NCBI GenBank assembly: GCA_963664375.1
Contig: OY761449.1
Location: 2,845,695 to 2,909,694, forward strand
DNA: 64,000 nucleotides
Reading direction: 5' to 3'
From: Dehalococcoidia bacterium
GTDB lineage: Bacteria; Chloroflexota; Dehalococcoidia; Lucifugimonadales; UBA3495
Of this stretch, positions 17,497 through 53,982 are shown one piece after another; positions within the stretch are counted from its first letter, which is position 1; every line of letters begins with the position of its first letter. The notes under the pieces were generated by a model. The model searched no databases and was not told the origin of the DNA. It worked only from the letters and a program-made list of their open reading frames with translations. The position numbers and the translations under genes are program-made.

Positions 17497-18762
17497 TTAC
17501 CTTGTAGCCTTCTCCCTCCCTTTTCCTGTTGGAAAAGGGTTTTCAGGCCGACCGCGGGTCAACAAGTCCCGCGCCAGTGCCCGCTCTTCTACGGTATCCG
17601 ACAGCGCGCCGTCCAGTCTCGCGCAATGCAGGTGGGCGAGTATCTCGCCAACAAGCGGCCCCTGGGGCGCTCCCATCTCCAGCAGGTCATCGCCGGTCAG
17701 ACTGGGGCGAACAAAACGCAATTCGTTGAGGTAGCTCAGCAGGGCGCGCCTCACGAACGGGTCCCCCGTCAACTTGGCTCTGGCTGCAATTGCTTGAGGC
17801 GCGAATGGTTTCAGGATGCAATACAGGCCGGATGGCCGACCGGCCGATTCCCTGACCGCCGTCTCTTTTTCCCGTAGTTCAATGGTATCACGGGCCACCA
17901 TCGCCCATCGCCCGGAGAGCCGCAGCCGCTGGATGACCGCACAGCCATCCGCCTCGCTTAGCGGGCTGAACAGGGCCGCCAGCCATTCGTCGGGGGCAAG
18001 GCGACCGTCATCGCATTCTGCCATTGCGCGGACACCGGCGTCATCGGCCAGGGAGCGGTGCAACCCTGACAGCAACCCCAGCTCCGACGCCCTCAAGAGA
18101 ACACGCCCAGGCTCCGCCTCCTCCAGGACTCTTTCCACCTCGTGCAGCCAGCGGTCTCCGCTTACGGAGTCCATGATGCCCGAGTCAACGGCTGAGGCCA
18201 TTAAATGCAACGTACTATCGTCGATGTGGAATCCGAATCGCTGCTCGTAGCGGACGGCGCGGAACATCCTGGTGGGATCGTCCACGAAACTTTGGGAATG
18301 AAGGACGCGCACTATGCCGGATTCCAGGTCGTCGAGACCGCTCACGGGGTCGAGAATGCCCCTGCCCGCGGGCCAGACTCGCAGGGCCATGGCGTTGACG
18401 GTGAAGTCGCGTCTCGCCAGATCGTCTTCGATGCTGCCCGCCGTTACGCGGGGCAGGCTGCCCGGCTCTGGGTACTCCTCCCTCCGGGCGGTGACCAGAT
18501 CGACCCGGCGCTCGTCGGCAACGACGGTGGACGTCCCAAACTGCGGATGCGCGGTTATCTTGCCCCCGGTTTCCCCGGCGAATCGCTTGGCGATTGCCAC
18601 AGCGTCGCCTTGGACGGAGAAATCCAGGTCGGCTACCGGGGAACCCAGCAGGGCATCCCTCACCGGCCCGCCAACGAGATAAATGCTCACCTCCGCCTCT
18701 TGCGCCAAATCCGCCAGCAAGCGGAACACGCCTTGCCGCCCTTCATCGAGGCCGGCGATCAA
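17497..18762 (-). CDS. cca: CCA-adding enzyme / tRNA nucleotidyltransferase family
   Basis: 421 aa: YLVGGPVRDALLG...DLDF...RRDFTVNAMA. Confidence 0.8.
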   Translation of the reverse strand: MIAGLDEGRQGVFRLLADLAQEAEVSIYLVGGPVRDALLGSPVADLDFSVQGDAVAIAKRFAGETGGKITAHPQFGTSTVVADERRVDLVTARREEYPEPGSLPRVTAGSIEDDLARRDFTVNAMALRVWPAGRGILDPVSGLDDLESGIVRVLHSQSFVDDPTRMFRAVRYEQRFGFHIDDSTLHLMASAVDSGIMDSVSGDRWLHEVERVLEEAEPGRVLLRASELGLLSGLHRSLADDAGVRAMAECDDGRLAPDEWLAALFSPLSEADGCAVIQRLRLSGRWAMVARDTIELREKETAVRESAGRPSGLYCILKPFAPQAIAARAKLTGDPFVRRALLSYLNELRFVRPSLTGDDLLEMGAPQGPLVGEILAHLHCARLDGALSDTVEERALARDLLTRGRPENPFPTGKGREKATR

Positions 18763-18936
18763 AGAGTACAGGCAGAGATTGCGGGCGTGCGAGGACGTGG
18801 GACTGCCTCCATTACGAGCGGGGGATACGGATTTACAACAAGGGTTACGCGCACTCTAATCGGGGCTTGAATTATAACATGTCCGGTTTGCTCTCCCTCT
18901 GCCGGATGATGCTGTGCCATAGGGCCAGCTACCGCT

Positions 18937-18965
18937 TTGACAATACCGGAGGGCGTGGCTAAAAT
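18937..18965 (+). promoter_or_regulatory. near-consensus promoter upstream of the DsbA-like gene
   Basis: TTGACA (18937-18942), 17 nt, then TAAAAT (18960-18965). AGGAGG follows at 19014-19019. Confidence 0.5.
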
Positions 18966-19022
18966 GCTGGCAAGGCGGCGGCCCCCGGCAGGGGCGAAGT
19001 TCCGCCAAAACCAGCAGGAGGC

Positions 19023-19655
19023 ATGAGGATGGCCGAGGCTGAGTTCACATCCTATTACGATTTCCGTTGACCCTTTGTCTACAATGCCAACATGTGGTTG
19101 GCAAAGGTTCGGGAGCTGACCGGGAATCCCATCGAGATTGACTGGCAGCCCTTCTCACTGGCCCAGGTGAACAATAAGGACGGCGACAACGTCTGGGAGA
19201 GGCCCGATGTCGTCAGCGGTAGCGACCCGGTCCTCCTGGCTCACCAGGCCGGATTGGCGATCAAGCGGCAGGGCAAGGAGGCGTTCGAGGCCTATTTCAT
19301 GGCTCTCCTCAAGGCTCGCCATGAGGACAAAGCCGACCTCAACGACCGCGCGGTGATTGATGCAGCCGGCGAAGCCGCAGGCATCGACATGGCACGTTTC
19401 CGCGAGGACATCGCCGACCCTACTTTGTTGGATGAACTGGCGGAAAGCCACACCAAGGCCGTCGACGAGTACGGCGCCTTTGGCGTTCCCACGTTCGTGT
19501 TCGACAACGGGAACTTCGCCTTCCTCAAGATGTTCATCCCGCCCGAAGAGCAGTCGGTCGAGATTTACGACAACCTCATGAAGTCCATGAGCGAGTACGT
19601 CCACGTTGGCGAATTCAAGCGCCCGCAGCCCCCGTGGCCGCATGGGGTCATCTAG
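19023..19655 (+). CDS. DsbA-like thioredoxin-fold protein with an in-frame TGA (19068-19070) at the active-site Cys position (candidate selenoprotein)
   Basis: AGGAGG precedes ATG 19023. The reading MRMAEAEFTSYYDFR-TGA-PFVYNANMWLAK is in frame with the track ORF 19092..19655. D-F-R-[TGA]-P-F-V-Y matches the family D-x-x-C-P-x-x-Y motif. The cis-Pro loop FGVPTFVF is present, and total length is 210 codons. Confidence 0.7.
19072..19107 (+). promoter_or_regulatory. SECIS-like hairpin 3' of TGA 19068
   Basis: CCTTT (19072-76) pairs with AAAGG (19103-07) and GCCAAC (19086-91) pairs with GTTGGC (19097-102). The loop is AUGUG and there is a 9-nt 5' bulge. Confidence 0.5.
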
Positions 19656-20406
19656 GCTCCCCGCCAGCCCGGCCGCCGGTGGCCGGGCACGCAATTCCGC
19701 GTCTTTGCTGGGGTTCCAATTCAGGGACCCCAGTCTTCTTGACCATGCCTTAGTCCACCGCTCCTACTGCAACGAGCACGGACTGGAAGCGTCGGATTCC
19801 TACGAGCGGCTGGAGTTCCTTGGAGACGCGGTAATCGAGCTGGTGATTTCCGAGCTGCTCTACCGGCAATTCCCCGATGCGGACGAGGGCCAGCTCACAA
19901 AGGCGCGGTCTTCGCTGGTCAAGGGAAAAGTCCTGGCGGGAGTGGCCCGCAGGCTGGGTCTGGGCGAAATGCTGAAAGTCGGCCACGGCGTCGAGGAGTC
20001 GGGCGGCAGGGAGCAGGACTCGGTGCTGGCCGCGACGTTTGAGGCCGTGATTGCCGCCGTCTACCTCGACCAGGGTCTCACGGCGGCCCGGGAATTCGTG
20101 TGCCGGAACATGGCCCCGGAACTGACAGACATATCCAGGCTGGGCGCGCCGCCCGAAAACCCCAAGTCCCGGCTCCAGGAACTCTTGCAGGGGCAGGGAT
20201 TGCCTACCCCGGCGTACAGGCCAGCGGGACGCGAGGGGCCTGATCACAGCCCCGTTTTCAGGGTGGAGGCGGTCGTCGGCGACCGGGTAATCGGCCATGG
20301 TCAAGGCGGCAGAAAGGCGGACGCCGAGAAAGCCGCTGCGGAAGATGCGCTGGAGTTGCTCCAGACCGACGAATTTCTGAGGGAGTCCGATACCGAGGGC
20401 GCCTAG
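19642..20406 (+). CDS. rnc: ribonuclease III
   Basis: LLDHALVHRSY...ERLEFLGDAVIELVISE is the RNase III signature, and a C-terminal dsRBD is present. The start is uncertain (ATG 19606 or 19642). Confidence 0.85.
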   Translation: MGSSRLPASPAAGGRARNSASLLGFQFRDPSLLDHALVHRSYCNEHGLEASDSYERLEFLGDAVIELVISELLYRQFPDADEGQLTKARSSLVKGKVLAGVARRLGLGEMLKVGHGVEESGGREQDSVLAATFEAVIAAVYLDQGLTAAREFVCRNMAPELTDISRLGAPPENPKSRLQELLQGQGLPTPAYRPAGREGPDHSPVFRVEAVVGDRVIGHGQGGRKADAEKAAAEDALELLQTDEFLRESDTEGA

Positions 20407-20484
20407 ACGGACATCGCCGGATGTCGTAGCCGCATACGAACCTCCCGCGGCAAAAGGATCCAATTACGCCTGACAGCTTTACTT

Positions 20485-20584
20485 GCGTCATTCCGGCGAA
20501 AGCCGGCATCCAGAGTAGCTCAATCCCGTAGAATGATTTGGACACGGAAACCCCTGGATTCCGGCTTTCGCCGGAATGACGGGG
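20485..20584. repeat. paired-hairpin element
   Basis: gcgtcattccggcgaaagccggcatccaga ... ctggattccggctttcgccggaatgacggg. Confidence 0.85.
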
Positions 20585-20618
20585 GCAATTTTGCGACACG
20601 CCCTAGGCAAATACAGCC

Positions 20619-21572
20619 ATGCTGAGACTCTTTCGACGCAACCGACAGGACGAAAAAAAGGCCACCGAACGGGCGGTCAAACCCAGCCGCGAGCGCTGGT
20701 TCGGCCGCATCGTTGGCCTGCTGCGTTCGCCGCGCCTCGATGACGCAGTCTGGGACGAAATCGAGGAGATACTCATTTCGTCTGACGTGGGCGTGGAGAC
20801 ATCCCTTAGAATCATTGAGCGTCTCAAGGAACAGGTCAGATCCGGGGAGTTGGATTCTCCGGAGGCGGTCACCGAATCGTTGAAACAAGCCCTGACCAGC
20901 GACCTTACGGCGGATTTCGAGGAATTTCTGCCCGGCGACGATGGCGCGGCGAAACCCTACGTAATCCTGATGGTCGGCGTGAACGGGGTTGGCAAGACCA
21001 CCAGCATCGGAAAGCTGGCCCACCATTTCACCGAGTCCGGCAGGAAAGTCGTAATCGGAGCCGCCGACACCTTCCGCGCCGCGGCCGCCGAGCAACTGGA
21101 AATCCTGGGCGACCGCGTGGGCGTTGACGTCATCCGCCACGCCGCTGGCGCCGACCCCGGGGCCGTCGCCTACGATGCCTTCCAGGCCAGCAAGGCCCGC
21201 GGGGCGGACATCCTGATTATCGACACCGCCGGGCGGCTCCACACCAAGTCGAACCTGATGGAGGAACTGCGCAAGATTCACCGGGTGTTGCAGCGGCAGG
21301 ACGCAACCGCTCCCCACGAGGTGATTCTCACGCTGGACGCAACGACCGGCCACAACGGGCTGGCCCAAGCCAAGTCTTTCCGCGAAGCGGTGGACTGCAC
21401 CGGCATTTTCCTCGCCAAGCTGGACGGCACCGCAAGGGGCGGCATTGTCCTCGCAATCCGACAAGAGTTGCAGGTGCCCATTCTGTTTATCGGCACCGGC
21501 GAGGGCATGGCCGACTTTGCTCCATTCGATGCCGACGATTTCGTGGATGCCCTGCTTGAGCCGGTTTCCTGA
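20619..21572 (+). CDS. ftsY: signal recognition particle receptor
   Basis: 317 aa: [39 protein letters not shown]. Confidence 0.9.
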
Positions 21573-34966: not shown

Positions 34967-35326
34967 CTACCCAGCCGCGGCTACCACCGAGTCGAGGACA
35001 GCCGCGCCACCCCCGACGAACAGTTGGTCTCCGACGCGCATCATGGGCCGCCTGACCAGCTTTGGTTCCTGCAACATCAGGCGGACCATCTCGTCTTCGG
35101 AAAGTTCCTGTCCGGCCAGGCCCATCTGCTTCAGACTGGGACTGCGGCGGGCGAAAATCTGATCAATGCCCGCGATAGCAGCCATCTCCCTTACCTCTGC
35201 TTCGGTGAAGGATTCCTTGAAATAGTCACGTTCATTGACTGCCAGGTCATTTTGCAGGAGAAACTCTCTCGCTTTCCGGCAGGTGGATCAACGGGGCCAC
35301 CAATAGAGATTTACAGGCTGGCTCAT
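34967..35326 (-). CDS. ArsC/Spx-family thioredoxin-fold protein with an in-frame TGA (35290-35288) replacing the first Cys of CxxC (candidate selenoprotein)
   Basis: ATG 35326 gives MSQPVNLYWWPR-TGA-STCRKAREFLLQNDLAVNERDYF...EVRE, joining in frame to the track ORF 34967..35185 (MAAIAG...LVRRPMM). Total length is 119 codons, the normal size for the family. Confidence 0.75.
35239..35282 (-). promoter_or_regulatory. SECIS-like hairpin 3' of TGA 35290
   Basis: In the mRNA, GCGAGAGA-GUU-UCUCCUGC (35272-35254) forms 8 pairs with one mismatch. An outer stem CUGCC/GGCAG spans 35282-78 and 35243-39. Confidence 0.5.
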
Positions 35327-39332: not shown

Positions 39333-42161
39333 TTATTCGTCTTGCGTTCTTATCAATCGGGCTGGCCGGACATCCAGCCCGGGCAGCATCGGCGCCGGGT
39401 CGAATTCCTCGCTGGCCTCCATGTCGATTGCCAGTTGGCCGAACAGCGCGGTGGAGGCCACCATACCCCGCGGCAGACCGGCATCGAACCTTGCCACGCC
39501 CGGCAACTGGCCGTCGGCGGTCTGCACCGCAACTTTGGCGCCTTCGGGCAGGCCCAGGGACGCCGCGTCGTCAGGGTTGACGTCGACCCACTCCTCACGC
39601 TTGATGCGGTTGCGCTTCCCCTTGACAATTTCCATCTCACGATTCTGTTGCAACAGGACCCGTCCCGGCGCGAACCATAGGCCGTACCCCTCCGGCAATT
39701 CGGGCGCTGAAGCGAACAGCGAGGGAGTCAGCGGTATCGCCTTCATGTCGGAGAAGCCGTCGCTGTACAGGGCGGCGGTGCCAGGGTGGCCGGGTTCAGG
39801 GCAGGGCCATTGCAGCCCCTTGTGCTGTTTGCTCGCGTACAGCACCTGCGTGGGCTGGGGGCTTTCCAGTTGCGTCCTCAGAACTAGAGAACCCTCGCTT
39901 TCCAGCCTGCGATGGGAAATTCCGCCGTAGATGGGGGCTACCCTGGCGATTTCATCCATGATTTCCGCGGGCGTCAAAGATGGAAGGGCGTCCGGTTTTA
40001 TGCGTTGCGCCAGTTCCGTCAGCACGTGGCCTTCCGGCCTTGCTCCCGTTTCCCTGCGCGAAGCGGGGTTCAACCGTTGCACCCGGCGCTCCAGGTTGGT
40101 AAAGGTGCCGTCCTTTTCGGCAAAGGTCGGACGGGGCAGCACCACGTCGGCCCGCTGGGCCAGCGGGGTGAGGAAAGTGTCGTGCACCACCAGCAGGTCG
40201 AGATTGCCGAAAGCGTTGAATGCGTCGCCGATCTTTCCGTTGGTGAAATTGGGGCTGTCTCCAATGACCACCGTCGCCTTCAGTTTGCCGCTCGCGGCCG
40301 CGTCAACCATCTGCGCCACGGGCAGACCGGGAGCGTCCGGGAGCGCAGCGCCCCACGCCGACTCCAAGGCCGCGCGGTCGTCCGCATCGGATACCCGGCG
40401 GTAGCCGGGCAGGCGGTCGGGGACGCAGCCCACGTCCCAGGCGCCCTGTTCGTTGGCGCCGCGACGCATGGGATAGAGACCGGTGCCCGGCCGGCCGATG
40501 TTGCCGGTCAACAGGGCCAGGTTGACCATCGTGAGCACGCAGTTCCGGCTCTGAGTCCGGTCGATATTGTCCAGCCCGTATACAACGGCGGCTTCTGCGG
40601 CTTCTGCGAACATGCGGGCGGCAGCAGCGATTTGTTCCTCTGAGACCCGGGTTTCCTCAACGATTTCCGCCATTTCCCGGGAGCGCAGTGAATAACGGAG
40701 GGTGGCGGGGCTCTCGCAGTTCTCCTCCAGCCATTCTTCGCGTTCCAGCCCCTGGTCAACGATGCTCCTCAGGATGCCAGCCAGCAGCGTCAGCTCGGTG
40801 CCGGGCGCCGGGCGCAGCCAGATGTGGGCGTAGCGGGTCAGCTCAACCTCGCGGGAGTCAATCACTACCAGCTTTGTGTTCTTACGGGCGGCCCGCTTGA
40901 TGGGAACGGCAACCACGTTCTGCTCTTCGGTGACGTTGGTGTTGAACGCCAGAATACAACCCGCCCGCTCCAAGTCCCAGATGGGGTTGGTGGCCGCCGC
41001 CACCCCCAGCGAATCCTCCAGACCCAGCACCAGCTCCGGGTCGAGATTGGAGGTGTGGTCAACGTTGTTGGTGCCCATCACCACCCTGGCGAATTTCTGC
41101 GCCAGGTAATGCTCCTCGTTGGTGCTGGTGGGCGAGGTGAGCAGCGCGAACTCATCGCCGTTCACACTTGCGAGACGCTCGGCCACAAAATCCAGCGCCT
41201 CGTCCCACGTAGCTTCAACCAGAGCATCCCCCCGGCGTATAAGCGGCGTCTGGAGACGGGCGGAGTCGTTGACGAATTCCAGGCCGAACTTGCCCTTGAA
41301 ACATGCCTGGCCCTGGTTGGCCGGGGAGTTGATTTCCGGGACTGCCCGGATTAGCTCATCCTTGCCGTTGAACTCCAGGTTCAACTGGCAACCCACGGGA
41401 CAGTGGGGGCAGATGGAGCGCTCGACGCGACGCGCCTTCTCCCACTTGTGGCCCCTTTCCACCAGTGCGCCCACCGGGCATACGTCGATGCAGGAGCCGC
41501 AGAACTCGCAACCCGACTCCAGCAGCGACGTGCCGAAGGATGTCCCCACCAGGGCCTGGCCGCTCCGCTCGGTGAAGCCGATGGCGTCATCGCCCCGCAA
41601 CTCCTCGCAGGCGCGAACGCAACGCCCGCAGACTATGCAGAGGTTGTAGTCGCGGTCGTAAAAGGGATCGGACACCTCGAGGGGAATGTCGCGGTACTTG
41701 TAGCCCAGCGGCGACTCGAGGTTCATGCCCAGGTAGCGAACGGTGTCCTTGAGTTCGCAACGCTCGTTCTTGGGGCAGGTAACGCAGCGGTCGTTGACCG
41801 AAACGTGGCGAAGGCATACGTCGCTGGGGCCGCAGATGTCGATGCGATGGCAGGTCAGGCAGCCGTTGGGATGCTCGGCGATCAGCATCTCCATCACGGA
41901 ACGGCGCAACTGGTCCACGGCCGGGATCTGGTTATGCACCACCATCCCGTCCGCCACGGGCAGCGTGCAGGCCGCCGGGTATCCGCGCTGCCCTTCCACC
42001 TCGACGACGCACATCCGGCAGGCCGCGTAGGGCTTCATGCCGGGGTGGTAGCAGAGGTAAGGCAGGTAGAGACCCGCGTCAATGGCCGCCTCAAGGACCA
42101 TCTTGCCGGGCTGGGTGGTCACCTCAACGCCGTCTATGCTTATGGTGATGTCGTCGGGCAT
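39333..42161 (-). CDS. NuoG/FdhA-like Fe-S molybdopterin-oxidoreductase-fold subunit
   Basis: 942 aa with an N-terminal 2Fe-2S region (CYHPGMKPYAACRMCVVE) and 4Fe-4S motifs, followed by a MopB fold. The FDH active-site region reads GTNNVDHTSNLDP, with no Cys and no TGA. Confidence 0.75.
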   Translation of the reverse strand: MPDDITISIDGVEVTTQPGKMVLEAAIDAGLYLPYLCYHPGMKPYAACRMCVVEVEGQRGYPAACTLPVADGMVVHNQIPAVDQLRRSVMEMLIAEHPNGCLTCHRIDICGPSDVCLRHVSVNDRCVTCPKNERCELKDTVRYLGMNLESPLGYKYRDIPLEVSDPFYDRDYNLCIVCGRCVRACEELRGDDAIGFTERSGQALVGTSFGTSLLESGCEFCGSCIDVCPVGALVERGHKWEKARRVERSICPHCPVGCQLNLEFNGKDELIRAVPEINSPANQGQACFKGKFGLEFVNDSARLQTPLIRRGDALVEATWDEALDFVAERLASVNGDEFALLTSPTSTNEEHYLAQKFARVVMGTNNVDHTSNLDPELVLGLEDSLGVAAATNPIWDLERAGCILAFNTNVTEEQNVVAVPIKRAARKNTKLVVIDSREVELTRYAHIWLRPAPGTELTLLAGILRSIVDQGLEREEWLEENCESPATLRYSLRSREMAEIVEETRVSEEQIAAAARMFAEAAEAAVVYGLDNIDRTQSRNCVLTMVNLALLTGNIGRPGTGLYPMRRGANEQGAWDVGCVPDRLPGYRRVSDADDRAALESAWGAALPDAPGLPVAQMVDAAASGKLKATVVIGDSPNFTNGKIGDAFNAFGNLDLLVVHDTFLTPLAQRADVVLPRPTFAEKDGTFTNLERRVQRLNPASRRETGARPEGHVLTELAQRIKPDALPSLTPAEIMDEIARVAPIYGGISHRRLESEGSLVLRTQLESPQPTQVLYASKQHKGLQWPCPEPGHPGTAALYSDGFSDMKAIPLTPSLFASAPELPEGYGLWFAPGRVLLQQNREMEIVKGKRNRIKREEWVDVNPDDAASLGLPEGAKVAVQTADGQLPGVARFDAGLPRGMVASTALFGQLAIDMEASEEFDPAPMLPGLDVRPARLIRTQDE

Positions 42162-42226: not shown

Positions 42227-43963
42227 CTACCGGCGGGAACGCGCCGGCGAGTATCTCGGTTGATTGCAGACGCCCGTGGGACAGGTGTGCCTGAGAATAT
42301 GATCTTCGAACTCTCCGGGGAAATACCGCAGGGCGGACGACACGGGATTGAATCCCAACTGGCCGTGTCCGCAGAGGGAACCGGCCTGCATGTTCTCGCC
42401 GGTGCGCCGCATCAGGTCCAGGTCTTCCGGCTCGCCCTGGAGGTCGCAGATGCGTTCCAGCACCTCCAGCAGGTGGCTCATGCCCATCCGGCACGGGAAG
42501 CACTTGCCGCAGGACTCGTATTGGCAGAAGGCAACAAGGGCGCGCGTCAAATCGACGACGCAGGTGTCTTCGTCGGCGGCGATGATGCCGCCGGAGCCCA
42601 GTATGGCGCCAGCGCTGCGCAGCACGTCGAAGTCGAGGATCAGGTCCACGTTGTCCGCGCCAAGCACGCCGCCCAAGGGGCCGCCGGTCTGGAGGAATTT
42701 CAGCTTCTTGCCGCCGCGGATACCGCCGGCCGCATCGTACAGCACGTCTTTGAGGTTGATACCGAGGGGCACTTCCATCATGCCGGTATAGTTCAGCGCC
42801 CCGGACAGGCACAGGATGGCCGTGCCGGTGCTGCGGTCGTGGCCGATGCCAGCGAACCACTCGCCGCCGCGGGACATTATTTCCGGCACGTAGGACAGCG
42901 TCTTGACGTTGTTGATATTGGTGGGCCGCCCGAACAGTCCGAACTGCGCCGGGAAGGGCGGACGGAAGCGGGGCATGGCCCGCTTGCCCTCGATGGCCTC
43001 CATCAGGGCGCTTTCCTCTCCGGCCACGTAGGAATCCCCGGTCAGGGCAACCTCGATATCAAAGTCAAAGCCGGAACCCAGAATGTCCTCGCCCAGCAAG
43101 CCGAGCTCCTGGGCCTGGGCAACCGCGGCGCGGCAACGGTCAATGGGGCCGTCGTGGCCGTGGCGGATGAAGATGTATCCCTTGCTGGCGCCGGTGGCAT
43201 AGCCGCAGAGGATGACGCCCTCAACCAGCGTGTGCGGGTCGCTTTCCAGGATGGCCTTGTCGTTGAACGCCCCGGGGTCACCCTCTTCGCAGTTGCAGAG
43301 CACGTACTTGTCCCGCGACGGATTGCCCGCCAGGAAGCGCCACTTGGTCGCCGTGGGGAAGGCTGCGCCGCCACGCCCGCGGAGTCCCGACTCGTTCACC
43401 TGCTGGAGGGCATCGTCGGGGGTCATTTCCGTCAGCGCCCGGTTGAGCGCCCGGTACCCCCCGTTGGCGATGTACTGGTAAATGTCCAGCGGGTCGATGT
43501 TGCCCGCGTTACGCAGCGCAACGCGGTTTTCCCAAGCCCGCATAGGGTGTAGAGCGAGATCCCTCAACCCGGCGGGAGGAACAAAATTGTCGTCGGCATC
43601 GGGAGGGGCGAGATAGCCCAGCGCCAGCTCGGTAACCGGCTGGCCTCCGGCGACGTGGCCCGCCACGACTTCACCGGCGCGCTCCGGGTCAAAGTTTCCG
43701 TAGAACACGCGCGGCCCTCCCGGAAGCTGCACGTCCAGCAGCGGCTCGGCAAAGCAAAGTCCGATGCACCCGACTTCGGAAAGTCGGGCGTCCACGCCCC
43801 GGCTCTCCAGGGCCGACCGCAGTACCTCTACCACCTCAATGCCCCCGGCGGCCTGCCCGCACAGGGCCGTGCCCACCCTGAGCCATGGCCGTTCGGCCTC
43901 CGACTCCCAGCGCCGCAGGGCCTCTCGCTCCAGTTGCTCAAAACTAGCGGGCATGGACTTCAT
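42227..43963 (-). CDS. NuoF-like NADH-binding FMN/4Fe-4S subunit with an N-terminal thioredoxin-like ferredoxin extension
   Basis: GLRGRGGAAFPTATKW and ESCGKCFPCR are NuoF motifs, and about 150 extra N-terminal residues are present. The start is taken at MKSMPASF (43963); the track ORF runs to 44044. Confidence 0.8.
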   Translation of the reverse strand: MKSMPASFEQLEREALRRWESEAERPWLRVGTALCGQAAGGIEVVEVLRSALESRGVDARLSEVGCIGLCFAEPLLDVQLPGGPRVFYGNFDPERAGEVVAGHVAGGQPVTELALGYLAPPDADDNFVPPAGLRDLALHPMRAWENRVALRNAGNIDPLDIYQYIANGGYRALNRALTEMTPDDALQQVNESGLRGRGGAAFPTATKWRFLAGNPSRDKYVLCNCEEGDPGAFNDKAILESDPHTLVEGVILCGYATGASKGYIFIRHGHDGPIDRCRAAVAQAQELGLLGEDILGSGFDFDIEVALTGDSYVAGEESALMEAIEGKRAMPRFRPPFPAQFGLFGRPTNINNVKTLSYVPEIMSRGGEWFAGIGHDRSTGTAILCLSGALNYTGMMEVPLGINLKDVLYDAAGGIRGGKKLKFLQTGGPLGGVLGADNVDLILDFDVLRSAGAILGSGGIIAADEDTCVVDLTRALVAFCQYESCGKCFPCRMGMSHLLEVLERICDLQGEPEDLDLMRRTGENMQAGSLCGHGQLGFNPVSSALRYFPGEFEDHILRHTCPTGVCNQPRYSPARSRR

Positions 43964-44450
43964 CCTGGCGCGGAGTTGACGGCGCATCATCCCGCAGCAG
44001 CCCGGAGACACGTTCGGCGGCGGAATGCGGGGTGACCCGGCCAATCAGGTGATGGTCTACGGACATCACCGGGGCAAGCGAACATGCGCCCAGGCAGGTG
44101 TTGAACCGGACGGACAGCCGGTGATCGGGGCGTTCACCCTCGTCTTCCAGGCCGGACGCCTCCAGCACGGCCTTCACCACCGCCATCGAGCCCATCAGGT
44201 GGCAGGAAGCGCCCCAGCAGACCTCGACCTGGCGCTCGGCGGGCGGCTGGAAACGAAAGTTGGGGTAGAAGGACGCAACCGCCCACACGTCGTTGACAGT
44301 AGCGCCCATAAAGTCGGCCACCAGTTCAACGGCTTCGCGGGGGATGTAGTGCAGTTCGTCTTCGACAGCCAACAGCGAGGACAAAACAGTTACGGTAGGC
44401 TGCGGCTGCCCCCGGACGGCCCGGTCTATCCTTTGTTCCAGACCATCCAT
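43944..44450 (-). CDS. NuoE-like 2Fe-2S subunit
   Basis: VCWGASCHLMG...CLGACSLAPVM. ATG 44450 (MDGLEQ) has AGGAG upstream; the track ORF runs to 44498. Confidence 0.75.
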   Translation of the reverse strand: MDGLEQRIDRAVRGQPQPTVTVLSSLLAVEDELHYIPREAVELVADFMGATVNDVWAVASFYPNFRFQPPAERQVEVCWGASCHLMGSMAVVKAVLEASGLEDEGERPDHRLSVRFNTCLGACSLAPVMSVDHHLIGRVTPHSAAERVSGLLRDDAPSTPRQDEVHAR

Positions 44451-44696: not shown

Positions 44697-45263
44697 CTAC
44701 TCCACGCGGGCCACGCTGCCCAGCAGGATGCGCTCGACCTCCGGCAGCAGGGCCTCGGCGCGCTCGCGGCATTCATCGTCCGAGAGGCTGGACAGGGGAT
44801 GGGGAGCAACGGCGTACTCGTAGTCCGGCACGCCCATCATGCGGGTCATGGCCTTGGCGGTGTTGTTGAAAACGTGGGTGATGATGGACGCGGTGGGCAG
44901 GCCCAGGCGCTCCATTTCGATTCCGTCGTGCACACTGCACGAGCTGCATGAGCCTCAATCACCCACCCCAGTGATCAGCACGTCCACGCCGTTGAGCATA
45001 TCCTCAACGACGTCCGGCTTGGTCGGAAGGGAGGCGGAATGCTTGTTGAACATACGGACTTCCTTCAGTCCGTGCCTTTCCTGCAACATGCGGCCCAGTT
45101 CGTTGAGAACCTTGTCGGAGTTGGCCTTGGAGTTTTCCAGCAATCCGAGGGTCTTGCCCTCCAGCGAGCTGGGGCGGTCGTTGAGCCGGAAATCCCCCAC
45201 CTGGAGTTCCAGGCCCGCGGGATTCACAAGCCTGACGTTCCTGACCATAACCGTGTCTGCCAT
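44697..45263 (-). CDS. GrdB-like 'UGSC' protein with an in-frame TGA (44957-44955) in a U-x-x-C-x-x-C motif (candidate selenoprotein)
   Basis: Track ORFs 44955..45263 and 44697..44933 are in one frame, separated only by TGA plus 7 codons: ...VDVLITGVGD-TGA-GSCSSCSVHDGIEMERLGLPTASI.... AGGAGG lies 9 nt before ATG 45263. Total length is 188 codons. Confidence 0.75.
44926..44942 (-). promoter_or_regulatory. SECIS-like hairpin 3' of TGA 44957
   Basis: In the mRNA, UCGUGCA-GUG-UGCACGA is a perfect 7-bp stem starting 12 nt after the UGA. Confidence 0.5.
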
Positions 45264-52321: not shown

Positions 52322-52396
52322 GCCCCTGTGGCGCAATGGAAGCGCAGTCGATTTGTAATCGACAGGTTAGGGGTTCGAATCCCCTCTGGGGCTCCA
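52322..52396 (+). tRNA. tRNA-Thr (anticodon TGT), CCA encoded
   Basis: Manual cloverleaf: acceptor GCCCCTG/CTGGGGC with one T-T mismatch, D stem GCGC/GCGC, anticodon arm GTCGA-TTTGTAA-TCGAC, T arm AGGGG-TTCGAAT-CCCCT. Confidence 0.85.
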
Positions 52397-52490
52397 AATC
52401 GCACTTGACCGTTCCGGCGGCCACGCAACCTGGCGCCGGATGATTGCGCCCCGGCGGGCGGATGTGCGAATATGGACAGGTCTCAATCCT

Positions 52491-52578
52491 GGAGGGGTGG
52501 GTGAGTGGTTAAAGCCACCAGACTGTAAATCTGGCGTCCGGAAGGGCTTCGCAGGTTCGAATCCTGCCCCCTCCACCA
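52491..52578 (+). tRNA. tRNA-Tyr (anticodon GTA), long variable arm, CCA encoded
   Basis: Acceptor GGAGGGG/CCCCTCC, anticodon arm CCAGA-CTGTAAA-TCTGG, T loop GGTTCGAATCC. Confidence 0.9.
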
Positions 52579-52655
52579 GAAACCGGGATCGGGCCCGTGA
52601 GCGCATCGCAGGCCAACAGCCGTGCGCTCACGAACCGGCTTTTACATTCTCATAA

Positions 52656-52730
52656 GCCCAGATAGCTCAGCGGTAGAGCACGTTCTTGGTAAGAACGGGG
52701 TCGGCGGTTCAATCCCGCCTCTGGGCTCCA
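52656..52730 (+). tRNA. tRNA-Thr (anticodon GGT), CCA encoded
   Basis: Acceptor GCCCAGA/TCTGGGC, anticodon arm CGTTC-TTGGTAA-GAACG, T loop GGTTCAATCC. It lies directly upstream of tuf, as thrT-tufB does in E. coli. Confidence 0.9.
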
Positions 52731-52797
52731 GTAAATGAACATAACAGTTGCAGGGAATCCGAACTAATTCGCTTACGCAGGGAGGACACGGCACAAG

Positions 52798-53982
<1,185 letters not shown>

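What the first reader, a model, noticed from the sequence alone, without database searches (positions are those of the whole stretch)
18937..19655. DsbA-like gene with an in-frame UGA at the active-site cysteine position: candidate selenoprotein truncated by ORF calling
The ORF track starts this gene at ATG 19092, which would remove the N-terminal active-site strand and helix of a DsbA fold. Upstream there is a TTGACA-17-TAAAAT promoter (18937-18965), a perfect AGGAGG (19014-19019) and ATG 19023. Reading from that ATG gives MRMAEAEFTSYYDFR-TGA-PFVYNANMW..., exactly in frame with the called ORF. The string D-F-R-[TGA]-P-F-V-Y coincides with the D-x-x-C-P-x-(C/x)-Y active-site motif of DsbA/FrnE-type thioredoxin-fold proteins. 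The cis-Pro loop GVPTFVF is present further on. Immediately 3' of the TGA the mRNA can form a two-part hairpin (19072-19107) with loop AUGUG about 24 nt from the UGA. TGA is an ordinary stop elsewhere in the window.
Basis: partly seen in the sequence, partly recalled or inferred. Interest (0 to 1): 0.8.

Follow-up and report, generated by a model that had tools for sequence, protein, structure and literature searches.

The report
Truncated DsbA-like selenoprotein gene
This is very probably a real selenoprotein gene: a small DsbA-fold redox enzyme whose only reactive residue is a selenocysteine encoded by an in-frame UGA, which gene callers cut short; the kind is already catalogued, so the find is sound but not surprising.

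Summary
The in-frame TGA at 19068-19070 lies exactly where full-length homologs have the active-site Cys (YDFR-C-PFVY), and where the nucleophilic Cys sits in the solved relatives DR2335 and Rv2466c. All 82 Sec-type loci examined (the window plus 81 fetched loci) keep TGA there. All have a GGAGG and a start codon exactly 13 codons upstream, and a conserved upstream peptide that shows synonymous drift. A 7-bp hairpin (19085-19103, -10 kcal/mol) lies 14 nt after the UGA. It folds better than about 96-99.8% of synonymous recodings, has two covarying pairs, and decays in the two Cys-type loci sequenced. The window holds two more TGA-interrupted genes from listed selenoprotein families (UGSC, ArsC). 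A genome carrying the ortholog (UBA1141) is published as a Sec user with 49 selenoproteins. Corrections: the conserved start is ATG 19029, not 19023; AGGAGG is at 19016-19021; the proposed lower stem is not conserved. No sel genes or tRNA-Sec lie in the window, so Sec machinery in this genome is inferred. DsbA-like selenoproteins, including a DxxUP form, are already listed, so this is a new member of a known kind. Its biochemical function is unknown.

The parts
18937..18965 (+). sigma-70-like promoter TTGACA-17 nt-TAAAAT
   Evidence: Consensus scan: 11 of 12 matches, 0.2 expected by chance. A TTGACW-N16-18-TANNNT motif lies within 220 nt upstream in 70 of 84 homologous loci. Function is inferred, not shown.
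19016..19021 (+). Shine-Dalgarno AGGAGG, 7 nt before ATG 19029
   Evidence: Direct reading and position check. A GGAGG-like motif lies at the same distance from the conserved start in the 17 loci whose upstream sequence was printed.
19029..19655 (+). Full coding sequence of the DsbA-like selenoprotein (208 aa, Sec14; TAG stop 19653-19655). ATG 19023 is an in-frame alternative two codons upstream.
   Evidence: A start codon lies 13 codons before the TGA/TGY in 84 of 84 loci. Pfam DSBA 67.6 bits and Rv2466c-like 35.5 bits with U replaced by C. Aligned with 210-aa Cys homologs.
19068..19070 (+). In-frame TGA read as selenocysteine (active-site nucleophile position)
   Evidence: Aligned with Cys in YDFR-C-PFVY homologs, with Cys24 of DR2335 and with the first Cys of the CPWC motif in Rv2466c. 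TGA in 82 of 82 Sec-type loci; TGT and TGC in the two Cys-type loci. In the model of a Cys homolog the residue is at the N-cap of helix alpha-1.
19065..19067 (+). Invariant CGT (Arg) codon immediately 5' of the UGA
   Evidence: CGT in 81 of 81 sequences, although CGT is only about 10% of Arg codons in these genes and other invariant Arg positions use 4-6 codons. Its role is unexplained.
19085..19103 (+). SECIS-like hairpin: stem 19085-19091 with 19097-19103, loop AUGUG 19092-19096, starting 14 nt after the UGA
   Evidence: dG -10.0 kcal/mol, z -3.1. Zero synonymous variation at codons +7 and +11. Native fold matched by only 1-20 of 500 synonymous recodings in 15 of 16 distinct variants; pair 18-36 is U-A x66 and C-G x16 with no mismatch. 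Covariation score 0.261 against 0.140 in shuffles, 0 of 500 reaching it. Weaker in the Cys-type loci, -5.4 and -7.0.
19482..19493 (+). cis-Pro loop G-V-P-T of the thioredoxin fold
   Evidence: G154, V155, P156 and T157 are invariant in the alignment. Strand follows the loop in the model.
44697..45263 (-). Context evidence: second selenoprotein gene, UGSC family. ATG 45263, TGA 44957-44955, TAG 44699-44697; hairpin UCGUGCA-GUG-UGCACGA at 44942-44926.
   Evidence: NCBIfam NF041046 'UGSC family (seleno)protein' 145.8 bits against cutoff 125. Pfam UGSC 188.9 bits. Hairpin -8.9 kcal/mol. Closer relatives are truncated to about 103 aa at the same point.
34967..35326 (-). Context evidence: third TGA-interrupted gene, ArsC family (MSQPVNLYWWPR-U-STCRKA...), TGA 35290-35288
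   Evidence: Refined scan and translation. Pfam ArsC 57.9 bits against cutoff 24, from profile position 1. The hairpin is less clear.

Best explanation
The gene at 19029-19655 encodes a cytoplasmic, 208-residue DsbA-fold protein of the single-nucleophile kind. Its nearest relatives are DR2335 of Deinococcus and, more distantly, Rv2466c. The only redox-active residue is a selenocysteine at position 14, encoded by UGA 19068-19070. Translation starts at ATG 19029, behind the AGGAGG. When the ribosome reaches the UGA, the hairpin 14 nt downstream (19085-19103) recruits SelB with Sec-tRNA(Sec), Sec is inserted, and translation continues to TAG 19653. The 187-aa ORF from ATG 19092 is an artefact of treating UGA as a stop. 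Chemically, the selenolate sits at the N-cap of helix alpha-1 next to the cis-Pro loop and has no resolving Cys. It would therefore attack a disulfide, a mixed disulfide or an electrophile and be regenerated by a low-molecular-weight thiol or a partner protein, in the monothiol style shown for DsbA-Mrx1 enzymes. Shown here: the Sec/Cys alignment, conservation of the TGA, the conserved upstream start and peptide, selection on the hairpin, the fold, and the position of the residue. Inferred: actual Sec insertion, SelB binding, the presence of Sec machinery in this genome, the cytoplasmic location, and the substrate.
For: TGA aligns with the Cys of full-length homologs and of solved relatives. 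TGA is present in 82 of 82 Sec-type loci, while flanking codons drift synonymously (GAT/GAC, TTC/TTT, CCN, GTN), so both sides are translated in one frame. A start codon lies 13 codons upstream in 84 of 84 loci, with a GGAGG before it in the 17 loci printed. The N-terminal extension adds 19 bits to the Pfam DSBA score. The hairpin is frozen at synonymous sites, beats synonymous recodings (mean z -2.3), has two covarying pairs and is weaker in the Cys-type loci. It meets the published bSECIS limits on loop size, stem length, 16-37 nt spacing (21 nt here) and MFE of -7.5 or lower. P0016's 'W' at this position is a TGA called under another code. Two more TGA-interrupted genes of listed selenoprotein families lie in the window. 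TGA is a normal stop elsewhere. UBA1141, which carries the ortholog as L047, is a BSepDB Sec user with 49 selenoproteins, and BSepDB entry requires at least two Sec-pathway genes. SelA and SelB are reported as common in sponge-symbiont bins. In the model of a Cys homolog (pLDDT 88.6) the Cys is at the N-cap of alpha-1. The best structural match is DR2335, TM 0.78. 76 of 82 Sec-type proteins have no Cys. The monothiol mechanism is documented for Rv2466c and NCgl2478.
Against: No selA, selB, selD or tRNA-Sec was found in the 64-kb window, and not every ORF was scanned, so the machinery is not shown for this genome. The window's loop AUGUG has its G at position 3, not in the first two loop positions as the consensus bSECIS model asks; the GUGU variants in other lineages do comply. 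No Rfam family matches the hairpin. Over 51-66 nt the fold is no better than shuffles; only the 19-nt core stands out. There are no protein-level data. The closest structural relative has no known function, so the chemistry is by analogy.
Confidence: 0.9

Rival explanations
1. The TGA is a true stop. The functional product is the 187-aa protein that starts at ATG 19092, and the upstream 13-15 codons are a short leader peptide or non-coding.
For: Every public annotation found calls the gene this way, at 187-195 aa. ATG 19092 exists and is in frame.
Against: The truncated product lacks strand beta-1 and the active-site turn of the fold. The upstream peptide FT-YYDFR is conserved at the protein level with synonymous drift. 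A conserved start lies 13 codons before the TGA, with GGAGG before it, in Sec-type and Cys-type loci alike. Codon 24 is not a conserved ATG: 32 of 82 Sec-type loci have GTG/Val there (plus L082). Cys-type homologs are made as one 210-aa protein.
Confidence: 0.03
2. The UGA is read through without selenocysteine, for example by near-cognate Trp or Cys insertion promoted by the hairpin and the UGA-C context, or by a lineage-specific reassignment.
For: Sec machinery was not found in the window. One database entry translates the codon as W. UGA followed by C is known from general knowledge to be a leaky context.
Against: TGA terminates Pfam-verified genes in the same window, so there is no reassignment. 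The 'W' entry is only a different code used by a gene caller. The codon sits on a catalytic Cys position, where Trp would abolish function. Three genes of three listed selenoprotein families carry the TGA at redox positions. A genome with the ortholog is published as Sec-utilising.
Confidence: 0.05
3. It is a pseudogene or an assembly error: a Cys codon (TGT/TGC) mutated or miscalled to TGA.
For: A single base separates TGA from TGT or TGC.
Against: The same TGA occurs in 82 of 82 Sec-type loci. The exact 187-aa product recurs on 5 contigs. The rest of the gene is under strong purifying selection, with 74% mean column identity.
Confidence: 0.01

Closest known systems
DsbA-like selenoprotein family (Zhang, Fomenko & Gladyshev 2005, Sargasso Sea, PMC1088965; Peng et al. 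2016, PMC5029168); 'form 2', motif DxxUP, PF01323, in the 2026 review PMC13188914
   Same: PF01323 DsbA fold with Sec at the active-site Cys position, a downstream stem-loop, and Cys homologs. The window's D-F-R-U-P fits the DxxUP motif listed for form 2.
   Different: It is not the classical form 1 (UxxC): the motif here is U-P-F-V with no resolving Cys. [quoted passage not shown] No NCBIfam model covers this protein.
DR2335 of Deinococcus radiodurans (PDB 7dk9; C24S mutant 7dka), a single-Cys DsbA-like protein
   Same: It is the best sequence match (E 1.9e-16) and the best fold match (TM 0.78, 29% identity). Its single active-site Cys in FDFL-C-PYAW aligns with the Sec, there is no second Cys in the motif, and the alignment covers nearly the whole of both proteins.
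   Different: It uses Cys, not Sec, and comes from a different phylum. No function or expression data are reported for it.
Rv2466c / NCgl2339 / NCgl2478 (DsbA-Mrx1 cluster; Pfam PF22234 Rv2466c-like)
   Same: Pfam Rv2466c-like 35.5 bits against cutoff 27, and a fold match at TM about 0.68. These are DsbA-fold reductases that are not oxidases. They reduce mixed disulfides by a monothiol mechanism that needs only the N-terminal nucleophile.
   Different: Those enzymes have C-P-W/F-C with a resolving Cys and depend on mycothiol. Here the motif is U-P-F-V, 76 of 82 Sec-type proteins have no Cys at all, and the reductant is unknown.
Bacterial SECIS consensus model (Zhang & Gladyshev; summarised in PMC13188914)
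   Same: Loop of 4-5 nt, stem of 6-7 bp, 21 nt from the UGA to the loop, and MFE -10 kcal/mol all fall within the model's limits. A GU dinucleotide lies in the loop.
   Different: In the window variant the G is at loop position 3 rather than 1-2. The stem changes register between lineages: a continuous 7 bp with loop AUGUG, or a GUGU/AUGU tetraloop with or without a bulged U.

Membership tests
Bacterial selenoprotein gene (UGA-Sec with SECIS) | In-frame UGA aligned with Cys in homologs, with coding conservation on both sides | tested here: met
   Alignment A1. TGA in 82 of 82 Sec-type loci and TGT/TGC in two Cys-type loci. Synonymous drift on both sides of the codon.
Bacterial selenoprotein gene (UGA-Sec with SECIS) | Stem-loop just 3' of the UGA: loop 3-9 nt, stem 4-16 bp, 16-37 nt from UGA to loop, MFE -7.5 kcal/mol or lower | tested here: met
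   7-bp stem, 5-nt loop, 21 nt spacing, -10.0 kcal/mol. Conserved beyond coding constraint.
Bacterial selenoprotein gene (UGA-Sec with SECIS) | [quoted passage not shown] | tested here: inconclusive
   The window loop AUGUG and the AUGU variants have G at position 3. The GUGU variants in other lineages have G at position 1.
Bacterial selenoprotein gene (UGA-Sec with SECIS) | selA, selB, selD and tRNA-Sec in the same genome | not testable with these tools
   None found in the 64-kb window; not every ORF was scanned and the rest of the genome is not available. Indirect support: two more TGA-interrupted selenoprotein-family genes in the window, and the ortholog-carrying UBA1141 is listed as a Sec user.
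Bacterial selenoprotein gene (UGA-Sec with SECIS) | Selenium shown in the protein | not testable with these tools
   Needs 75Se labelling or mass spectrometry.
DsbA-like thioredoxin fold (Pfam PF01323) | Profile score above the gathering threshold, thioredoxin fold with helical insertion, and a cis-Pro loop | tested here: met
   67.6 bits against 25.6. Model of a Cys homolog with pLDDT 88.6 and DsbA-family structural hits. GVPT is invariant.
Classical DsbA oxidase | CxxC dithiol motif | tested here: not met
   The motif is U-P-F-V (C-P-F-V in Cys forms); 76 of 82 Sec-type proteins have no Cys.
Classical DsbA oxidase | Export signal / periplasmic location | tested here: not met
   Only 13 residues precede the Sec, and strand beta-1 begins at residue 6 of the model, so there is no room for a signal peptide. 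No signal-peptide predictor was run.
DsbA-like selenoprotein form 1 | UxxC motif | tested here: not met
   U-P-F-V; form 1 as defined.
DsbA-like selenoprotein form 2 | DxxUP motif in a PF01323 domain | tested here: met
   D-F-R-U-P; definition.
DsbA-like selenoprotein form 2 | Sequence relatedness to the reference member MDP6049977.1 | not testable with these tools
   The accession could not be retrieved with the tools available.
Rv2466c-like / DsbA-Mrx1 cluster (PF22234) | Profile score above threshold | tested here: met
   35.5 bits against 27.
Rv2466c-like / DsbA-Mrx1 cluster (PF22234) | C-P-W/F-C signature with a resolving Cys | tested here: not met
   U-P-F-V; signature as described.
UGSC family (seleno)protein (second gene, 44697-45263, minus strand) | NCBIfam NF041046 equivalog score above cutoff, with U/C in the UGSC motif | tested here: met
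   145.8 bits against 125. The motif D-U-G-S-C lies at the TGA.

The most novel reading that the evidence does not exclude
This could be the type example of a distinct, lineage-wide class: a Cys-free, mono-selenol DsbA-fold enzyme kept as a core gene next to cca, rnc and ftsY across SAR202 and sponge-associated Dehalococcoidia. Its chemistry would differ from dithiol oxidoreductases, for example a low-molecular-weight-thiol-coupled reductase or an isomerase or transferase of the kappa-GST/HCCA-isomerase type. Its recoding signal might include a previously unrecognised 5' determinant, the invariant CGU codon before the UGA, together with a SECIS that tolerates register shifts.
Probability: 0.2. 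Interest if true: 0.5.

Novelty: new member of a known kind. Interest (0 to 1): 0.3.

Why it matters
The practical point concerns annotation. Every public copy of this gene that I retrieved is truncated to 187-195 aa, or carries a Trp at the Sec position. Source names range from 'hypothetical protein' to 'protein-disulfide isomerase-like protein with CxxC motif', which the protein does not have. No NCBIfam model exists that would let an annotation pipeline recover the Sec form. The gene is conserved in at least 80 species-level Dehalococcoidia/SAR202 genomes, so the error is systematic. Three selenoprotein genes in 64 kb fit published reports that this clade is among the most selenoprotein-rich bacteria, which bears on selenium demand in marine and sponge-associated Chloroflexota. 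Biochemically the protein has one selenol and no thiol, and its nearest solved relative, DR2335, has no known function. A Sec/Cys pair of natural homologs would therefore be a clean system for asking what this DsbA subfamily does.

Tried and rejected
Rfam, at gathering thresholds over the whole window and at permissive E-values over 19000-19200, gave only three tRNAs and chance hits, with no SECIS family. ARAGORN found no tRNA-Sec in the window.

Pfam scans of 20 ORFs, chosen for sizes near SelA, SelB or SelD or for closeness to the second TGA gene, found no sel genes.

NCBIfam has no model for the DsbA-like protein.

Folding 51-66 nt after the UGA gave energies no better than shuffles.

My first scan for TGA-bridged genes used thresholds that missed the target itself. 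A refined scan was needed.

No BSepDB supplements were held as text. Peng 2016's held supplements listed DsbA-like selenoproteins only as one undivided family, with no DxxUP form. I therefore could not confirm by sequence that the published 'form 2' is this family.

I considered using the remaining protein search to find SelA, SelB or SelD on the same chromosomes. I rejected this because, without a Dehalococcoidia seed sequence, the 120 listed hits would come from other phyla.
Full report
**1. The observation**

- The called ORF runs 19092..19655.
- Translating from ATG 19023 gives MRMAEAEFTSYYDFR*PFVYNANMW..., continuous with that ORF, with the stop at TGA 19068-19070.
- The promoter-like TTGACA-17-TAAAAT is at 18937-18965. 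It matches 11 of 12 consensus positions, and one site was found against 0.2 expected in shuffles.
- GVPT, the cis-Pro loop, is present and invariant in homologs.

Two details need correcting.
- AGGAGG is at 19016-19021. That is only 1 nt before ATG 19023 but 7 nt before the second ATG at 19029.
- In 84 of 84 homologous loci a start codon lies exactly 13 codons before the TGA or Cys codon. A GGAGG precedes it in the 17 loci whose upstream sequence was printed. The 15-codon start occurs in only 3 loci.

The real start is therefore almost certainly ATG 19029. The product is 208 aa with the recoded residue at position 14.

**2. The UGA sits on the active-site cysteine**

With the TGA read as Cys, the Pfam DSBA score rises from 48.4 to 67.6 bits. 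The match then begins at profile position 5 instead of 30, and Rv2466c-like (PF22234) also passes its threshold.

A search of about 5.8 billion proteins found 853 relatives in two length classes.
- The 210-aa proteins read ...YDFRCPFVYNA..., and their Cys falls exactly on the TGA.
- The 187-195-aa proteins all begin just after that codon.

One apparent exception, P0016, has Trp at the site. At the DNA level it is a TGA that a gene caller read under another code.

Against solved structures, the residue aligns with Cys24 of DR2335 (FDFL-C-PYAW). That Cys is mutated in the companion entry 7dka. It also aligns with the first Cys of the CPWC motif in Rv2466c.

An AlphaFold model of a natural Cys homolog (pLDDT 88.6, pTM 0.86) shows strand beta-1 at residues 6-10, the Cys at residue 14, and helix alpha-1 at 15-31. 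This is the canonical nucleophile position of the thioredoxin fold. The best fold match is DR2335, with TM 0.78.

**3. Conservation of the UGA**

A scan of one genome per species returned 459 relatives. The best 80 are all Dehalococcoidia, SAR202 or other Chloroflexota MAGs, at 64-96% protein identity to the window.
- All 80 have TGA at this codon, inside a conserved [YF]DFR-TGA-PFVY context. Counting the window and L082, that makes 82 of 82 Sec-type loci.
- Codons on both sides drift synonymously (GAT/GAC, TTC/TTT, CCN, GTN). Both sides are therefore translated in one frame.
- The two Cys-type loci for which DNA was fetched carry TGT and TGC. One of them, L081, lies in the same neighbourhood as the window: CCA-adding enzyme, this gene, RNase III, FtsY.

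This rules out a pseudogene or a sequencing error.

**4. The downstream RNA**

The core hairpin is UGCCAAC-AUGUG-GUUGGCA at 19085-19103. It starts 14 nt after the UGA and folds at -10.0 kcal/mol with z = -3.1.

Evidence that the RNA itself is under selection:
- **Frozen synonymous sites.** Variation is zero at codons +7 (GCC, 41 of 41) and +11 (GCA, 64 of 64). Neighbouring four-fold sites run at 1.3-1.9 bits.
- **Linked changes.** Codon +10 splits TTG/CTG 40:40, tracking the AAC-to-GCC change at codon +7 with one exception.
- **Recoding test.** I recoded codons +5 to +12 synonymously using the family's own codon usage. The native RNA was matched or beaten by only 1-20 of 500 recodings in 15 of 16 distinct variants, with mean z -2.3. 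Native energies cluster near -10 kcal/mol, against means of -4.2 to -7.0 for recodings.
- **Covariation.** The outer pair is U-A in 66 loci and C-G in 16, with no mismatch. On 18 representative sequences, the shifted register pairs 87% of cells. It has two pairs with compensatory double changes and a covariation score of 0.261 against 0.140 in shuffles. No shuffle of 500 reached that score, and all slid controls were lower. The window's own register gives 79% paired cells.
- **Register shifts.** Lineages use three solutions: a continuous 7-bp stem with loop AUGUG, a GUGU or AUGU tetraloop with a bulged U, or a GUGU tetraloop without that bulged U.
- **Cys forms.** The two Cys-type loci fold at only -5.4 and -7.0 kcal/mol.

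The element meets the published bSECIS limits for loop size, stem length, spacing (21 nt against 16-37) and energy.

It departs from that model in one respect: in the window variant the loop G is at position 3, not 1-2. Rfam has no matching family.

**5. Can this organism make selenocysteine?**

This is the weakest link. The window contains no tRNA-Sec. No selA, selB or selD turned up among the 20 ORFs scanned, and the rest of the genome was not available. Four lines of indirect evidence point the same way.
- **TGA is an ordinary stop here.** It ends Pfam-verified genes such as MutS, an LPG-synthase-like gene and an amine oxidase, so the code is not reassigned.
- **Two more TGA-interrupted genes lie in the window, both from listed selenoprotein families.**
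  - A UGSC-family gene lies at 45263-44697 on the minus strand, with TGA at 44957-44955 in the motif D-U-G-S-C. It scores 145.8 bits against NCBIfam 'UGSC family (seleno)protein', cutoff 125.
  - That gene has a 7-bp hairpin with loop GUG 12 nt after its TGA. Its closer relatives are truncated at the same point.
  - An ArsC-family gene has TGA at 35290-35288 in ...WWPR-U-STCRKA.... It scores Pfam ArsC 57.9 bits from profile position 1.
- **Published lists include this clade.** BSepDB ranks 'Dehalococcoidia bacterium UBA1141', with 49 selenoprotein genes, among its ten most selenoprotein-rich organisms. UBA1141 is my locus L047, which carries the TGA ortholog. A second UUID-named Dehalococcoidia MAG has 46. 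Only species with at least two Sec-pathway genes were admitted.
- **Sponge symbionts commonly carry the machinery.** SelA and SelB co-occur in most sponge-symbiont bins of various phyla. The window's protein cluster includes entries from Geodia barretti material.

The Sec trait is patchy within Chloroflexi. It is present in Dehalogenimonas, Sphaerobacter and Anaerolinea, and absent from Dehalococcoides.

**6. What the protein probably does**

Only 13 residues precede the Sec, and beta-1 begins at residue 6 of the model. There is no room for a signal peptide, so the protein is most likely cytoplasmic.

The motif is U-P-F-V with no resolving Cys, and 76 of 82 Sec-type proteins contain no Cys at all. 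It therefore cannot work as a dithiol oxidase like DsbA.

The characterised relatives Rv2466c and NCgl2478 are reductases, not oxidases. They reduce mixed disulfides by a monothiol mechanism that needs only the N-terminal nucleophile.

By analogy I propose a mono-selenol reductase, or possibly an isomerase or transferase. It would be regenerated by a low-molecular-weight thiol or by a partner protein. This step is inference only. The closest relative, DR2335, is described as having a single conserved Cys and no reported function.

**7. Comparison with what is known, and novelty**

DsbA-like selenoproteins were reported from the Sargasso Sea in 2005 with a UxxC motif. They were counted in 41 organisms in 2016. 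The 2026 review lists a 'form 2' with motif DxxUP in PF01323, and the window's D-F-R-U-P fits it.

I could not compare sequences with the reference accession. That entry is oddly labelled as a crotonase-family protein, so membership of form 2 rests on the motif alone.

Truncated annotation of bacterial selenoprotein genes is a recognised problem. The finding is therefore a correct call of a new member of a known kind, not a new kind.

**8. Smaller points that remain unexplained**

- The Arg codon directly before the UGA is CGT in every Sec-type locus. CGT is only about 10% of Arg codons in these genes, and other invariant Arg positions use 4-6 codons. One Cys-type locus has CGC there.
- None of the 82 Sec-type genes ends in TGA; the stops are TAG in 62 and TAA in 20. 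For comparison, TGA ends 22 of the 56 greedily chosen ORFs in the window.
- Both counts are inflated by shared ancestry among the loci.

**Verdict**

- Observation confirmed, interpretation supported.
- Confidence that this is a selenoprotein gene truncated by ORF calling: 0.9.
- Interest 0.3, because the family, the mechanism and the clade's richness in selenoproteins are already published.

Noticed in passing
window 44697-45263 (minus strand); TGA 44957-44955: A second selenoprotein gene. It belongs to the UGSC family (NF041046, 145.8 bits against cutoff 125) and is split by gene calling into 102-aa and 78-aa ORFs. It has an AGGAGG before ATG 45263, and a hairpin UCGUGCA-GUG-UGCACGA at 44942-44926.
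   Followed up: yes
window 34967-35326 (minus strand); TGA 35290-35288: A third TGA-interrupted gene, from the ArsC family (Pfam 57.9 bits against cutoff 24), with WWPR-U-STCRKA at the position of the family's N-terminal Cys. Only a 72-aa C-terminal ORF is called. The hairpin after the TGA is weak or unclear.
   Followed up: partly
window 19065-19067 and the same codon in L001-L080 and L082: The Arg codon immediately 5' of the UGA is CGT in every Sec-type locus. CGT is only about 10% of Arg codons in these genes, and other invariant Arg positions use 4-6 codons. It may be a 5' context requirement for recoding.
   Followed up: partly
L001-L080, L082 and window 19653-19655: None of the 82 Sec-type DsbA-like genes terminates with TGA (TAG 62, TAA 20). 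In the window, TGA ends 22 of the 56 greedily chosen ORFs. The count is not corrected for shared ancestry.
   Followed up: no
window 39333-42161 and 42227-44044 (minus strand): A 942-aa molybdopterin formate-dehydrogenase-like gene (2Fe-2S, 4Fe-4S and molybdopterin domains) and a NuoF-like gene lie directly downstream of the UGSC selenoprotein gene. The FdhA-like ORF has no in-frame TGA, so if it is a formate dehydrogenase it is not a Sec form.
   Followed up: partly
window 17497-21572 and L081: The gene order CCA-adding enzyme (divergent), DsbA-like gene, RNase III, FtsY is shared between the window and the Cys-type locus L081. The DsbA-like stop overlaps the called RNase III ORF (19606-20406).
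   Followed up: partly
protein clusters P0001-P0134: All database copies of the Sec-type protein that I saw are truncated or carry W at the Sec position. Some are named 'protein-disulfide isomerase-like protein with CxxC motif', although the family has no CxxC. One cluster member is filed under the sponge Geodia barretti (CAI8008426.1), presumably symbiont DNA in a host assembly.
   Followed up: no
window 52322-53982: tRNA-Thr(TGT), tRNA-Tyr(GTA) and tRNA-Thr(GGT) lie directly upstream of an EF-Tu gene (52798-53982). This is ordinary translation-gene context, and there is no tRNA-Sec here.
   Followed up: yes
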